Shown here: piece by piece, positions 14,124 to 31,462 of the stretch
How positions within the stretch are numbered: position 1 is the first letter of the stretch
Layout: the number at the start of each line of letters is the position of its first letter
NCBI GenBank assembly: GCA_965203445.1
Contig: OZ241883.1
Span: forward strand, 160,001 to 224,000
Origin: Candidatus Oxydemutator sp.
Lineage (GTDB): Bacteria > Pseudomonadota > Gammaproteobacteria > Poriferisulfidales > Oxydemutatoraceae
Direction: 5' to 3'
DNA: 64,000 bases
Notes under the pieces: generated by a model
Told to the model about the DNA's origin: nothing
Seen by the model: only the letters and a program-made list of their open reading frames with translations
The model's database searches: none
Program-made: the position numbers and the translations under genes

Positions 14124-14199
14124 TGGAGCGGGAAACGGGGTTCGAACCCGCGACCTCAACCTTGGCAAGGTTGCGCTCTACCAACTGAGCTATTCCCGC
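14124..14199 (-). tRNA. tRNA-Gly (GCC)
   Basis: GCGGGAATAGCTCAGTTGGTAGAGCGCAACCTTGCCAAGGTTGAGGTCGCGGGTTCGAACCCCGTTTCCCGCTCCA on the minus strand. Confidence 0.98.
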
Positions 14200-14258: not shown

Positions 14259-14325
14259 CTGCTTCGGGAACGCCCGCGGGGGCGTTCCCTTACCTTTCAG
14301 GGGCGCTCATGGGGCGTTTCCTCGC
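14259..14325. repeat. REP-like palindrome, copy 1, plus a degenerate tandem copy
   Basis: GGGAACGCCC-GCGG-GGGCGTTCCC at 14266-14289; near-identical to the reverse complement of 40915-40982. Confidence 0.8.
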
Positions 14326-14503
14326 CTCGGGTTGCTATCAGGCGAGAGGGTGACTCCGCGTCGCACTCGAAGTGCGTGCCACCTGCATTCGGATAAGGTG
14401 CTGCGGCTGACCCCGAATGCGCCTTGGGTTGCAGACAAGCCGTGTTTGTCCCAGAATAGTAGGGGAATTATATATCTAAATCTACAGAATAGTGGTGAAG
14501 TAC

Positions 14504-14531
14504 TTGATTTTCTATAGGAATATGGTATGAT
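14504..14531 (+). promoter_or_regulatory. Putative sigma70 promoter of tnpB (extended -10)
   Basis: TTGATT-16 bp-TATGAT with TGn extension, ending 5 bp before GTG 14537; no Shine-Dalgarno visible. Confidence 0.55.
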
Positions 14532-14536
14532 GTTTT

Positions 14537-15769
14537 GTGATGAAAGTCCATAGAACAATCCGGTATAGGTTGCATCCTGGTACGCAGGCCAAAGCCCGCA
14601 AGTTGGCGGGATTGGCGGGGGCGTGCAGGTTTGTATGGAATCATTTCGTAGGGAAGTTAAGGGACGAATATCTGGCATATGGATGCTGTAAGCCTTGGTA
14701 TTTTACATTGGGCAAGCAGTTCACTCTGTTACGTCGCCACTGTGAACCCTGGTTGCAGGAATACTCGGCCAACATAGTAAAGGCATCTTTGAAACAGTTG
14801 GAAACGACGTACAAGCAGTTTTATAAGAAAGAGGGCGGATTGCCGAGGTTCCATGCAAAATATATGCATCCCGATAGTTTTCCCTTGGTGACGGGGACGT
14901 TCCATCTGAAAGGCCGTTACTTGCACATCGCCAAGATAGGCGAGGTGCTGTTGCTTGGCCACTATCCCTATCCGGACGGCGTGCCGAAGTCCGGCGCGGT
15001 CAAGCGGGAATGCGGCAGGTGGTATGCGTATATCACGTATGAAGTGGAACAATCCGAAGCATTGAAACCTGTAAGAGAAGTCGGCATAGACCGCAACGTC
15101 GGTCAGGTAACATTATCCGACGGGACGATGTATCGTATGCCGGATACGGCAAAACATGAACGTCGCGTCAGGCGTTATCAGAAGAAGATGGCCAGGCGAC
15201 AGGGGCCGAACCGCAAGAAAGGGATCAAGGCGTCGAACCGGTGGAAGCGCGCACAGTTGCTTCATCAGAAGGCACAGGCCACGTTGCGACACGTCAGACG
15301 GAATTGGTGCCATGGCGTATCGAGGGAAGTGGCCGATAAATACTCCCTTGTGCACCTGGAGCAGTTGAACAATCCAGGGATGACAAGAAGCGTCAAGGGA
15401 ACAAAGGAGAAACCCGGAACCAACGTTCGCGCGAAGAGCGGCTTGAACCGCGTGATCCTGGCGTCATGCTGGGGCAAGTTTCACCAGTGCCTGGACTACA
15501 AGACGAATACGAATTACATAAACCCTGCATACACAAGTCAGACATGCAATAAATGCGGGAACGTAGATAAAGAAAACAGAAAGACGCAGGCGGCGTTTAT
15601 TTGCACCGCTTGCGGTCATCGGGACAATGCGGATGTAAATGCCACATCGAATATATTGGCCTTCGGGAATGGGGCTACTGGACGTGGAGGCGGCGAGGTT
15701 ACTCGGCCTGTGAAGCGTCAAATGGATACCAGAAATCAACAAGAAAGTCTTGTAGATTTAGGTATATAA
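14537..15769 (+). CDS. tnpB: RNA-guided endonuclease TnpB
   Basis: N-terminal YRLHP...AGACRFVWN; RuvC-I VGIDRN, RuvC-II HLEQLN, PAYTSQTCNKCG...CTACG zinc ribbon, RuvC-III NADVNA; D-E-D intact. Confidence 0.95.
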   Translation: MMKVHRTIRYRLHPGTQAKARKLAGLAGACRFVWNHFVGKLRDEYLAYGCCKPWYFTLGKQFTLLRRHCEPWLQEYSANIVKASLKQLETTYKQFYKKEGGLPRFHAKYMHPDSFPLVTGTFHLKGRYLHIAKIGEVLLLGHYPYPDGVPKSGAVKRECGRWYAYITYEVEQSEALKPVREVGIDRNVGQVTLSDGTMYRMPDTAKHERRVRRYQKKMARRQGPNRKKGIKASNRWKRAQLLHQKAQATLRHVRRNWCHGVSREVADKYSLVHLEQLNNPGMTRSVKGTKEKPGTNVRAKSGLNRVILASCWGKFHQCLDYKTNTNYINPAYTSQTCNKCGNVDKENRKTQAAFICTACGHRDNADVNATSNILAFGNGATGRGGGEVTRPVKRQMDTRNQQESLVDLGI

Positions 15770-15774
15770 TTCCC
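15658..15774 (+). ncRNA. Candidate omegaRNA/reRNA scaffold overlapping the tnpB 3' end
   Basis: Nested hairpin GACG..AGGC..CGAG-GTTA-CTCG.GCCT..CGTC (15681-15719) followed by TCAA; position is typical of TnpB guide scaffolds; boundaries inferred. Confidence 0.45.
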
Positions 15775-16032
15775 AATAGTAGAACATCCCATTGGCGTTC
15801 GGCGCTTGTCGCCATGGGCTTCCATACGGTTTGCACAGGAAGCTATTTTACGCAACCCTGGGACGCGGTAGCCGACGTGCTTTATCTGCACTTCGGCTAT
15901 CTTTTTGTGGCCAGGATATTGGCCAGTACGTTTCTGGCCCTATACAGAGTAATCCGCGCCGAATAGTGGTAGTCTTTGCGCCATGGGTTCGTCGCGGATT
16001 TCACAAGCCCGTGCGAGGATCACCTATACGGG

Positions 16033-16103
16033 GGCTAGTTGGCAGAGTGGTTATGCAGCGGCCTGCAAAGCCGTGTACGCCGGTTCGATTCCGGCACTAG
16101 CCT
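16033..16103 (+). tRNA. tRNA-Cys (GCA), CCA not encoded
   Basis: GGCTAGT...GCCTGCAAAGC...GGTTCGATTCC...ACTAGCCT cloverleaf. Confidence 0.95.
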
Positions 16104-16136
16104 TCACCCGCACCGTCGCCGGCGACGGCGAAAAAC

Positions 16137-16220
16137 GGGGACGTGGCGGAATTGGCAGACGCTTTGGACTTAAAATCCAATGGCTTGAGAGCCGTGCGGG
16201 TTCGAGTCCCGCCGTCCCCA
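16137..16220 (+). tRNA. tRNA-Leu (TAA), CCA not encoded
   Basis: GGGGACG...TTGGACTTAAAATCCAA, long variable arm, GGTTCGAGTCC...CGTCCCCA. Confidence 0.95.
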
Positions 16221-16239
16221 CCGCTTCGGCGCACCGCCG

Positions 16240-31374: not shown

Positions 31375-31462
31375 GGGAAGTCCGTGGTCGTGCTCGCTTT
31401 TGCGGTGCGTGTAGTGTAAAGTATATAACTCCCGCAGTGAACGACTCGCTACAGTCAATCCG

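What the first reader, a model, noticed from the sequence alone, without database searches (positions are those of the whole stretch)
15658..15800. Guide RNA puzzle: the tnpB stop codon lies inside the right TIR
Seen: the ORF ends at TAA 15767-15769, within the right TIR. A nested hairpin (15681-15719) ends in TCAA (15718-15721), about 30 bp before the TIR. Established: TnpB omegaRNA scaffolds overlap the ORF 3' end and the guide is the DNA just beyond the element end. Inference, two testable models: (a) the scaffold ends at TCAA and the guide (ATGGATACCAGAAATCAAC...) is fixed inside the element and travels with it to hit a constant target; (b) the TIR is part of the scaffold and the guide is TSD plus flank (AATAGTAGAACATCCC...), which cuts empty alleles. 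Either would be an unusual way to program TnpB.
Basis: inference. Interest (0 to 1): 0.78.

Follow-up and report, generated by a model that had tools for sequence, protein, structure and literature searches.

The report
TnpB guide RNA built into an IS1595-type inverted repeat
A small mobile element carries only a TnpB RNA-guided nuclease gene between IS1595-type inverted repeats, and comparison of many copies indicates that its guide-RNA scaffold runs through the right repeat to the element's last base, so the guide is read from the neighbouring host DNA.

Summary
The element is window 14463-15774, with 24-nt TIRs and an 8-bp TSD (AATAGTAG). The tnpB stop TAA 15767-15769 lies in the right TIR, and the nested hairpin 15681-15719 ending in TCAA is real and shows covariation.

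The element is a non-autonomous IS1595-family insertion sequence whose only gene is tnpB. The genome's single IS1595 transposase sits in a 2616-bp element with near-identical TIRs. There are 13 full-length TnpB copies in this genome and more than 70 loci in other MAGs.

In 84 aligned 3' ends, sequence is conserved up to GGATAC (15729). A hairpin of variable sequence follows (15729-15762), whose 3' arm is the inner TIR. The last 6 nt of the element (ATTCCC, 15769-15774) pair with an upstream hairpin loop (GGGAAT, 15665-15670), with compensatory changes. This matches the guide-adjacent pseudoknot of known TnpB RNAs.

Model (b) is therefore supported: the TIR is scaffold and the guide is TSD plus flank. 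Model (a), a fixed internal guide, is disfavoured. An orientation-specific G just 5' of the left TSD (27 of 34) looks like a TAM.

No RNA data exist for this organism. TnpBs in DDE/TIR transposons, and Fanzor RNAs that contain TIRs, are already published, so this is a new member of a known kind.

The parts
14455..14462 (.). Left copy of the 8-bp target-site duplication AATAGTAG
   Evidence: Read directly and paired with 15775-15782. 34 of 65 related elements with both ends found have TSDs with at most 1 mismatch.
14463..14486 (.). Left terminal inverted repeat; the outer 13 nt GGGAATTATATAT belong to the family-wide GGGAATTATATAC motif
   Evidence: Inverted repeat I1, 24 nt, 96% complementary. 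The same ends flank the IS1595 transposase element at genome 1978350-1980965.
14504..14531 (+). Sigma-70-like promoter match TTGATT-16-TATGAT (TG-extended) just upstream of the tnpB start
   Evidence: The only promoter-like site in 14400-15900. The count is not above the shuffle expectation (1 found against a mean of 1.6), so this is a lead only.
14537..15769 (+). tnpB ORF, 410 aa, RuvC D-E-D triad and zinc-finger cysteines conserved; the last ~13 codons read through the RNA scaffold and TIR
   Evidence: Pfam PF07282, PF12323 and PF01385. NCBIfam guided_TnpB 200.5 bits against a cut-off of 100. Aligns to ISDra2 TnpB 8h1j_A, E 2.6e-16. D184, E274, D362, C336, C339 and C358 are invariant and C355 nearly invariant in 12 paralogs. 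The tail is not conserved.
15637..15774 (+). Predicted omegaRNA scaffold (covariance-model match), ending at the last base of the element
   Evidence: Model R1 scores 138 bits, E 2.5e-29, and is the only strong match in the window. There are 15 matches in the genome, 13 at full-length tnpB copies and 2 at truncated ones; the ends I compared with the TIR table coincide with right ends.
15659..15675 (+). Stem A hairpin (GCCTT 15659-15663 / GGGGC 15671-15675) with apical loop CGGGAAT; GGGAAT 15665-15670 is the 5' strand of the pseudoknot
   Evidence: RNAalifold. Helix 1 is 93.3% paired with 2 pairs changed on both sides; the pseudoknot helix is 96.7% paired.
15681..15719 (+).
   Evidence: Stem B: GC in 66 and CG in 17 at the first pair; AU in 79 and GC in 3 at the second. 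Stem C: 4 of 4 pairs changed on both sides.
15729..15762 (+). Hairpin D: sequence varies but pairing is kept; the 3' arm 15748-15762 overlaps the inner right TIR (15751-15762)
   Evidence: Per-sequence folds of 52 relatives. In the swap test cognate arms average -8.21 against -4.77 kcal/mol, and 0 of 5000 permutations reach this.
15751..15774 (.). Right terminal inverted repeat; contains the tnpB stop TAA 15767-15769 and the pseudoknot 3' strand ATTCCC 15769-15774
15775..15794 (+). Predicted guide template: right TSD copy (15775-15782) plus host flank, AATAGTAGAACATCCC...
   Evidence: Inferred from the position directly after the pseudoknot strand, as in ISDra2 (PMC10711439). Unique in the genome at up to 2 mismatches. 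No similarity between the flanks of different copies.

Best explanation
Window 14463-15774 is a non-autonomous insertion sequence of the IS1595 family (DDE transposase, TIRs, 8-bp TSD) whose only gene is tnpB. It is moved in trans by the IS1595 transposase encoded elsewhere in the genome.

The TnpB guide RNA (omegaRNA) is transcribed from the 3' end of tnpB through the right TIR into the flank. The last six bases of the element (AUUCCC) pair with the apical loop of hairpin A (GGGAAU) to form the guide-adjacent pseudoknot typical of TnpB RNAs.

The guide is therefore host DNA beginning at the right TSD copy (AAUAGUAGAACAUCCC...). It would direct TnpB to the uninterrupted allele, read as left flank ...CAG, then one TSD copy, then right flank. 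The occupied allele escapes for two reasons. The left TSD copy is followed by the TIR, giving only an 8-nt match. The full match on the right is preceded by ...TTCCC rather than by the purine/G seen 5' of left TSDs.

Shown by computation: the element anatomy, the transposase partner, the RNA covariation including the TIR, and the flank asymmetry. Inferred: transcription, the exact first guide base, the TAM, and cleavage or homing.
For: (1) TIRs of 24 nt at 96% and an 8-bp TSD. Five of 7 TIR-bounded elements in the genome have perfect 8-bp TSDs, and 34 of 65 elements across genomes have at most 1 mismatch.

(2) There is one IS1595 transposase in the genome (PF12762 1.2e-43; NF033547; single hit). 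It lies in a 2616-bp element whose TIRs differ from ours at 2 of 24 positions. Five of 5 other TnpB-bearing genomes tested also hold IS1595 transposases, against 1 of 14 control genomes. Several of these carry the same GGGAATTATATAC ends and 8-bp TSDs.

(3) The TnpB looks intact and active. There are 13 full-length copies.

(4) On 84 aligned RNA regions the structure is 95.2% paired, against 86.7% in shuffles, with covariation 0.261 against 0.127. None of 500 shuffles reached any of the five measures, and slid controls gave 24-59% paired.

(5) In the pseudoknot helix, 96.7% of cells are paired. Pair 33/257 is AU in 53, UG in 15, CG in 7 and UA in 1. Pair 34/256 is UA in 76 and CG in 1. Where the two TIRs differ at the terminal 6 nt compared here (L004, L006, L013, L044), the loop follows the right end, not the left.

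(6) Hairpin D covaries with the inner TIR.

(7) Similarity between copies stops at the last element base, and no intrinsic terminator lies in 14400-15900.

(8) The base 5' of the left TSD is G in 27 of 34 and never C. The mirror position after the right TSD is C in only 6 of 34 (Fisher 5.5e-7), while the TSD itself is roughly palindromic and AT-rich.

(9) Published TnpB RNAs form a pseudoknot between the 5 nt flanking the guide and an apical loop, and this is required for ISXfa1 activity (PMC10711439, passages).
Against: There is no RNA evidence of any kind. No listed sequencing run is RNA, so transcript ends are inferred.

Pseudoknot exceptions exist. Pair 33/257 is unpaired in 6 of 82 cells, pair 34/256 in 4, pair 30/260 in 3 and pair 31/259 in 2. 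Examples are GGGACT/ACTCCC (L047), GGGATT/ATTCCC (L068), GGGAAT/AGTCCC (L084) and GAGAAT (L056, L082).

The double changes trace to few independent events, about three lineages by my reading. The sequences are related, so the shuffle counts overstate significance.

In the hairpin D test the cognate arm is the best partner in only 9 of 28 representatives.

The G at -1 could be a transposase preference. Only 5 transposase-carrying elements could be compared (G or its mirror at 3 of 10 ends; Fisher 0.006), and 31 of 65 elements were dropped from the flank count for having 2 or more TSD mismatches.

The signal spans only 1-3 nt, shorter than the 4-5-nt target motifs that the review lists for IS200/IS605.

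In Fanzors the TSD is read as scaffold rather than guide, so the first guide base is uncertain here.
Confidence: 0.7

Rival explanations
1. Fanzor-like register. The scaffold includes the TIR and also the 8-nt TSD copy. The guide starts only at 15783 (AACATCCCATTGGCGT...), and the AT-rich TSD itself acts as the TAM in the empty allele.
For: In Fanzor1 and Fanzor2* elements with TIRs and TSDs, the TSD is predicted to be part of the scaffold and the RNAs extend about 15 nt beyond it (PMC10711439, passages). The TSD here is AT-rich, like the IS200/IS605 target motifs named in the review (TTAC, TTGAT).
Against: The TSD varies in sequence between copies, so it cannot form a fixed scaffold part. The pseudoknot strand ends at 15774, and in ISDra2 the guide follows the pseudoknot directly. 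A TAM lying wholly inside an 8-bp TSD would also be present at the occupied right junction, so the element would target itself. The asymmetric signal lies 5' of the TSD, not inside it.
Confidence: 0.15
2. The scaffold ends at TCAA or GGATAC, and a fixed guide inside the element (15722 or 15730 onwards) travels with it and hits a constant target.
For: Sequence conservation drops after GGATAC (15729) and the next stretch differs between subfamilies, as a guide would. IS608's right end is cleaved after TCAA (recalled, not from a call).
Against: TCAA lies in the 3' strand of covarying stem B. The variable stretch is 14-35 nt long and pairs in cis with the inner TIR, through stems that contain bulges and mismatches unsuited to guide-target pairing. 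The bases beyond it are again conserved and form the pseudoknot. Candidate guides 15722-15741 and 15730-15749 match only themselves and the 97%-identical twin copy in the genome. The plasmid search found nothing, and the phage search found two hits at E 0.4.
Confidence: 0.04
3. The conserved right-end structure serves the DNA or the mRNA and is not a guide-RNA scaffold. It could be a transposase-related end structure, or an mRNA stabiliser or attenuator. TnpB would then be a passenger with no flank-derived guide, or with a regulatory, non-cutting role.
For: No RNA or activity data exist. The tool descriptions warn that covariation among related sequences can be inflated. Exapted, non-cutting TnpB relatives are known (reference list entry; title only seen).
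Against: The structure is one-sided. Compact elements have the tnpB start codon directly after the left TIR, with no matching hairpin there. The IS1595 transposase element lacks hairpin D in the 16 nt before its right TIR. The loop-to-end pairing follows the right end rather than the left TIR. The architecture matches that described for TnpB RNAs. The RuvC triad is invariant, and copies are mobile with fresh TSDs.
Confidence: 0.08

Closest known systems
IS200/IS605 TnpB-omegaRNA (ISDra2 type)
   Same: Same protein family, with RuvC triad and zinc finger. The RNA overlaps the 3' end of tnpB and runs to the element end. A pseudoknot forms between the nucleotides flanking the guide and an apical loop (for ISDra2; here). 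The guide is inferred to come from flanking DNA.
   Different: No Y1 TnpA and no subterminal DNA hairpins as ends. This element has 24-nt TIRs and 8-bp TSDs, which the IS200/IS605 family lacks (review PMC13565253, passage). The NCBIfam IS200_TnpB score is 143, below its cut-off of 425.
DDE-transposase-associated TnpB branches (Altae-Tran et al. 2023, PMC10691335)
   Same: TnpB lies inside inverted terminal repeats, with its 3' end within 250 bp of the transposon end. Solo TnpBs are flanked by ends nearly identical to those of transposase-carrying copies and are probably moved in trans (passages).
   Different: The main text names IS630. The 2026 review lists ISL2, IS630 and IS1031. IS1595 occurs 0 times in the main text. 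Supplements were closed, so IS1595 may still be among their six branches. No RNA structure or pseudoknot analysis of such elements appeared in the passages I read.
Fanzor1 / Fanzor2* reRNAs in eukaryotic TIR/TSD transposons (PMC10711439)
   Same: The nuclease hitch-hikes on cut-and-paste-type elements. [quoted passage not shown]
   Different: This case is bacterial. The pseudoknot is retained, whereas it is reported lost in Fanzor1. The TSD here is 8 bp and variable, and it probably belongs to the guide rather than the scaffold.
IS607 TnpB (ISXfa1)
   Same: The pseudoknot is needed for activity, and the RNA boundary is adapted to the partner transposase.
   Different: Its partner is a serine recombinase, and it has no TIRs or TSDs. 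The NCBIfam IS607_TnpB score is 88, below its cut-off of 350.
IS1595-family insertion sequences with passenger genes
   Same: IS1595-type transposase (Zn-ribbon plus DDE_Tnp_IS1595) with the same TIRs and 8-bp TSDs. The autonomous copy in this genome itself carries a passenger ORF with methyltransferase-like and HNH-like motifs by eye.
   Different: The window's element has lost the transposase and carries tnpB instead. That ISfinder lists passenger-bearing IS1595 subgroups and 8-bp repeats is recalled, not taken from a call.

Membership tests
TnpB (OMEGA RNA-guided endonuclease) | Sequence match to TnpB models | tested here: met
   PF07282 7.1e-15, PF12323 5.9e-08 and PF01385 1.1e-07, all above their cut-offs. 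NF040570 guided_TnpB 200.5 bits against a cut-off of 100.
TnpB (OMEGA RNA-guided endonuclease) | Intact RuvC D-E-D triad and CxxC...CxxC zinc finger | tested here: met
   D184, E274, D362, C336, C339 and C358 are invariant and C355 nearly invariant in 12 paralogs. The protein aligns over residues 9-375 to ISDra2 TnpB 8h1j_A. The assignment of these residues to the triad is by motif (GIDRN, LEQLN, HRDNAD) and rests partly on recall.
TnpB (OMEGA RNA-guided endonuclease) | Structured RNA overlapping the gene's 3' end, with a pseudoknot next to the guide | tested here: met
   Covariation on 84 sequences, including the pseudoknot helix. This is computational only.
TnpB (OMEGA RNA-guided endonuclease) | RNA is expressed, bound by TnpB, and guides TAM-dependent DNA cleavage | not testable with these tools
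   No RNA run is listed. An asymmetric G at -1 is the only hint of a TAM.
IS200/IS605 family element | No TIRs, no TSDs, subterminal hairpin ends, Y1 TnpA partner | tested here: not met
   24-nt TIRs and an 8-bp TSD. The feature definition comes from the review passage. No search for a Y1 TnpA was made.
IS607 family element | Serine recombinase partner, no TIRs or TSDs, ends in GG | tested here: not met
   TIRs and TSDs are present and the ends are GGG...CCC inverted repeats. IS607_TnpB scores 88 bits, below its cut-off of 350.
IS1595 family insertion sequence | Encodes a DDE_Tnp_IS1595 transposase with an N-terminal zinc ribbon | tested here: not met
   The window's element encodes only TnpB. 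The transposase is supplied by genome 1978350-1980965, so the window copy is a non-autonomous derivative.
IS1595 family insertion sequence | Shares TIRs and TSD length with transposase-carrying members | tested here: met
   TIRs match at 22 of 24 positions, and the autonomous copy has the 8-bp TSD ATCAGAAA. The same terminal motif and 8-bp TSDs occur on transposase elements in other genomes.
DDE-associated TnpB branches (Altae-Tran 2023) | Inverted terminal repeats around tnpB, with the tnpB 3' end within 250 bp of the end | tested here: met
   The stop codon is inside the right TIR. The criterion comes from the passage.
DDE-associated TnpB branches (Altae-Tran 2023) | Phylogenetic placement in one of branches DDE-1 to DDE-6 | not tested
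Fanzor-type reRNA | TSD is incorporated into the scaffold and the pseudoknot is lost (Fanzor1) | tested here: inconclusive
   The pseudoknot is retained. The TSD varies in sequence, which argues against a scaffold role, but the register could not be tested.

The most novel reading that the evidence does not exclude
This would be a bacterial case in which TnpB homing has been fitted to a TSD-making DDE transposon. The transposase's own recognition bases (the TIR tip) double as the guide-adjacent pseudoknot. The variable 8-nt TSD forms the start of the guide. A minimal TAM, a G or purine and never C just 5' of the TSD, separates empty alleles from occupied ones. The one-sided G at -1 in surviving copies would then be a footprint of TnpB-driven retention acting after TAM-blind insertion by the transposase. 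It would offer a natural system for asking why OMEGA nucleases are rare on prokaryotic DDE elements.
Probability: 0.3. Interest if true: 0.65.

Novelty: new member of a known kind. Interest (0 to 1): 0.45.

Why it matters
A 2026 review (PMC13565253, passage read) treats the rarity of OMEGA nucleases on prokaryotic DDE transposons as unexplained. It suggests inflexible target recognition as one possible cause.

This family is abundant: 13 copies in a 2.4-Mb genome and dozens of loci in other MAGs. It shows how a TnpB RNA can coexist with transposase-imposed TIRs, because the TIR tip serves as the pseudoknot strand and the inner TIR as one arm of a stem.

It also gives concrete, testable predictions for the guide register and the TAM. 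It is a compact system of about 1.25-1.3 kb that could be rebuilt in E. coli to test whether RNA-guided homing helps a TSD-generating element.

Tried and rejected
RNA evidence. The look-up of sequencing runs listed no RNA holder, only two DNA-type contig runs, X1 and X2, from one sample. Laying them on 14300-16000 gave fragmented short contigs, no joints and no empty allele. The loose ends belong to the other copies. This says nothing about expression or polymorphism.

Rfam. The search found only the three tRNAs above threshold and no omegaRNA family.

Metagenome scan. It added only 4 distant loci.

Empty site in relatives. Three same-genus genomes have a spacer of about 63 bp between tRNA-Gly and tRNA-Cys and no element. 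Their spacer is too diverged and too short to serve as a clean pre-insertion allele.

A repeated 9-mer. CAGAATAGT occurs at 14452 and at 14485, and a similar stretch lies in the tRNA spacer. I considered it as a sign of target homology and rejected it. By my estimate about 5 exact 9-mer repeats are expected by chance in 1.65 kb.

Self-targeting of the TIRs. I considered whether the 5' arm of hairpin D acts as a guide against the element's own TIRs, with a TAM in the conserved GGGAATTATATAC. I rejected this because the arms carry bulges, indels and internal loops in most copies.

Alignment of the variable hairpin. MAFFT and RNAalifold could not align hairpin D, so it is absent from the consensus structure and from model R1. 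It was tested separately.

Supplements of papers were closed. The SI of PMC10691335, which lists the DDE families, could bear on whether the IS1595 link is new.

Literature searches behind the 'not in print' statement. The terms TnpB plus IS1595 gave 9 papers, none about this association judging by the listed titles and abstract starts. The terms TnpB, terminal inverted repeats, target site duplication and omegaRNA gave 33 papers, of which 20 were listed. IS1595 has 0 occurrences in the main text of PMC10691335.
Full report

- An ORF of 410 aa runs 14537-15769 and ends at TAA 15767-15769.
- The repeat finder gives an inverted repeat 14463-14486 / 15751-15774, 24 nt and 96% complementary, so the stop lies inside the right arm.
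- The 8-mer AATAGTAG directly flanks both arms, at 14455-14462 and 15775-15782.
- The nested hairpin is an outer stem 15681-15685 / 15715-15719 around a hairpin at 15689-15708. TCAA at 15718-15721 overlaps the 3' strand of the outer stem.
- The 241-nt stretch 15560-15800 folds better than all but 1 of 200 shuffles, z = -3.31.

**What the element is.**

- The ORF is a TnpB. It matches Pfam PF07282, PF12323 and PF01385 and NCBIfam guided_TnpB at 200.5 bits against a cut-off of 100. It falls below the IS200_TnpB and IS607_TnpB cut-offs.
- It aligns to ISDra2 TnpB (8h1j_A, E 2.6e-16); the best solved relative is 9j09_A (E 9.7e-22).
- In an alignment of 12 paralogs, D184, E274, D362 and three of the four zinc-finger cysteines are invariant, and the fourth is nearly so.
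- The genome (2.38 Mb, 63.6% GC) holds 13 full-length copies at 60-100% amino-acid identity.
- A search for the TIR found 7 TIR-bounded elements, 5 of them with perfect 8-bp TSDs.
- One of these, at genome 1978350-1980965 (2616 bp, TSD ATCAGAAA), encodes the only IS1595-family transposase in the genome. It matches DDE_Tnp_IS1595 at 1.2e-43 plus Zn_ribbon_IS1595, matches NF033547, and is the single PF12762 hit. It also carries a passenger ORF with methyltransferase-like and HNH-like motifs by eye.
- Its TIRs differ from ours at 2 of 24 positions.

The window's element is therefore a non-autonomous IS1595-type element whose cargo is tnpB.

**Relatives in other genomes.**

- 76 related loci were found in other assemblies, all MAGs (Arenicellales, 'Ca. 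Porisulfidus', Oxydemutatoraceae, other Gammaproteobacteria, one Opitutales).
- Of 65 elements for which I could find both ends, 25 have perfect 8-bp TSDs and 9 have one mismatch. The other 31 have 2-7 mismatches and were set aside.
- Five of 5 other TnpB-bearing genomes tested also hold IS1595 transposases, against 1 of 14 control genomes.
- Among the 13 transposase loci inspected (12 from those genomes plus the window genome's own, L157), 4 showed both ends with the GGGAATTATATAC-type motif. Three of these had TSDs with 0-1 mismatch.

**Where conservation drops.** Aligning the 3' ends of the 13 paralogs and of 53 sequences across genomes gives a clear pattern.

- Sequence is conserved up to ...GAAGCGTCAAATGGATAC (15729).
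- A stretch follows that varies in sequence and in length, 14-35 nt among the 13 paralogs.
- The conserved terminal GTATATAATTCCC comes next.
- After the last C (15774) there is no similarity at all.

So conservation does not end at TCAA. It ends at the element end, with a variable insert in between.

**RNA structure.**

- RNAalifold on 52 sequences found stem A (hairpin with loop CGGGAAU), stem B and stem C. Seven of its 15 pairs show compensatory changes.
- I built a covariance model from these (R1). It matched 84 regions in the loci held, including the more distant Arenicellales clade and three metagenome loci at 41-43% protein identity.
- On that alignment I counted a structure that adds a pseudoknot between loop A (GGGAAU, window 15665-15670) and the last six bases (AUUCCC, 15769-15774).
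- Overall, 95.2% of cells pair, against 86.7% in shuffles. Twelve pairs carry changes on both sides, against 6.5. Covariation is 0.261 against 0.127. None of 500 shuffles reached any measure, and sliding the partners by 1-3 columns drops pairing to 24-59%.
- The pseudoknot helix is 96.7% paired. Its fifth pair is AU in 53 sequences, UG in 15, CG in 7 and UA in 1, with 6 unpaired. Its sixth pair is UA in 76 and CG in 1.
- Concretely:
  - GGGAAU/AUUCCC in most sequences
  - GGGAAC/GUUCCC in one paralog (L013)
  - GGGACU/AGUCCC and GGGAUU/AGUCCC in the Arenicellales clade
  - GGGAUU/AAUCCC in L061
  - GGGAC/GUCCC in the metagenome loci
- Where the left and right TIRs differ at these positions (L004, L006, L013, L044), the loop stays complementary to the right end. 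This fits RNA pairing rather than transposase recognition.

Limits on this evidence:

- Exceptions exist: L047, L068, L084, L056 and L082.
- The double changes come from few lineages.
- The sequences are related and the alignment was fitted to the model. Both lean towards the structure, although the pseudoknot itself was not part of the model.

**Hairpin D.** The variable stretch folds in nearly every one of the 52 sequences into a hairpin whose 3' arm is the inner part of the right TIR. In the window this spans 15729-15762. I took 28 representatives whose inner-TIR arms differ at 5 or more of 15 positions. Cognate 5' regions pair with their own arm at a mean of -8.21 kcal/mol, against -4.77 for foreign arms, and 0 of 5000 permutations reach this. 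The cognate arm is the single best partner in only 9 of 28. The hairpin is one-sided. Compact elements have the tnpB start codon directly after the left TIR, and the transposase element shows no such arm in the 16 nt before its right TIR.

**Reading.** Passages of PMC10711439 state two relevant points. In ISDra2 the pseudoknot forms between the five nucleotides flanking the guide and an apical loop. In ISXfa1 a pseudoknot is required for activity. The arrangement here is the same, with the TIR tip serving as the guide-flanking strand. That puts the first guide base at 15775, the first base of the right TSD copy.

**A TAM-like signal.**

- In the 34 elements with good TSDs, the base just 5' of the left TSD is G in 27, A in 5, T in 2 and C in 0.
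- Position -2 is C in 1 of 34, and position -3 is A in 16.
- The mirror position after the right TSD is C in only 6 of 34 (Fisher 5.5e-7).
- The TSD itself is AT-rich and roughly palindromic, as expected for a DDE transposase.
- At the occupied right junction the corresponding bases are ...CCC.
- Five transposase-carrying elements show G or its mirror at 3 of 10 ends (Fisher 0.006). That sample is too small to exclude a transposase preference.

If the signal is real, it marks a short TAM directly 5' of the TSD. That fits a guide starting at the TSD, not after it as reported for Fanzors.

**The stop codon.** In 78 relatives the tnpB stop falls at three recurrent places inside the right end: -8 in 28, -16 or -17 in 30, and -20 to -30 in 16. 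One lies at -48 and 3 run past the end. The residues after KRQMDT are not conserved. The stop in the TIR is thus a by-product of the gene reading through its own RNA scaffold in a very compact element. It is not a feature under selection in itself.

**Comparison with what is known.**

- PMC10691335 (passages) reports six DDE-associated TnpB branches. All have inverted terminal repeats, and the TnpB 3' end is usually within 250 bp of the end. It also reports solo TnpBs flanked by ends like those of transposase-bearing copies. It names IS630, and IS1595 does not occur in its main text.
- The 2026 review PMC13565253 lists ISL2, IS630 and IS1031.
- PMC10711439 predicts that TIR and TSD are part of the Fanzor scaffold.

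The kind is therefore known. The new points are:

- the IS1595 partner, as far as the texts I could read go;
- the covariation evidence that the TIR tip is the pseudoknot strand;
- the probable use of a variable 8-nt TSD as the start of the guide;
- the one-sided flank signal.

**Limits.** No RNA or activity data exist. The search of earlier findings and paper supplements were closed. The locus in three congeners lacks the element but offers no clean empty site.

**Verdict.** Model (b) is supported at about 0.7, counting both 'the scaffold reaches the element end' and 'the guide is flank-derived'. The +1 register alone I put at about 0.55. This is a new member of a known kind, of moderate interest.

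Noticed in passing
outside the window: genome G000:C1:1978350-1980965 (locus L157 covers part): The only IS1595 transposase element of the genome (2616 bp, TSD ATCAGAAA). It also carries a 449-aa passenger ORF with adenine-methyltransferase-like motifs and a C-terminal HNH-like motif by eye. Only the transposase was run against Pfam.
   Followed up: partly
window 31410-31433: Solo TIR-like sequence TGTAGTGTAAAGTATATAACTCCC, 6 mismatches to the TIR, abutting the start of a minus-strand gene. It is probably a remnant of an old right end. No partner left end was looked for.
   Followed up: partly
outside the window: genome 113341-113503 and 247602-248387: A 163-bp MITE-like element with the same TIRs, and a 786-bp deletion derivative that keeps the 3' half of tnpB and the RNA scaffold.
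   Followed up: partly
window 14124-14199, 16032-16105, 16137-16222: The element sits in a tRNA cluster, between tRNA-Gly(GCC) on the minus strand and tRNA-Cys(GCA) and tRNA-Leu(TAA). In three same-genus genomes the Gly-Cys spacer is about 63 bp. Here it is about 470 bp plus the element, so other DNA was gained at this spot too.
   Followed up: partly
L040 and L043 (contig titled Opitutales MAG): Two TnpB copies at 56-57% identity have the same stems A-C, but their loop reads TGGAACT and I could not recognise a GTATATAATTCCC-type end. They may be a different end type or decayed copies, in a different phylum from the rest.
   Followed up: no
compact relatives, e.g. L033, L034, L083 (left ends): In the shortest elements (about 1247 bp) the tnpB ATG follows the left TIR directly (...CGCAATGAAA...). 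This leaves no room for an internal promoter. The window's subfamily has 50 extra bases there, with a TTGATT-16-TATGAT match.
   Followed up: no
L078 (1559-1673 and 3183-3308) and L058: Some loci show two RNA-scaffold matches, or a tnpB match stretched over about 1.7 kb. This suggests nested or interrupted copies.
   Followed up: no
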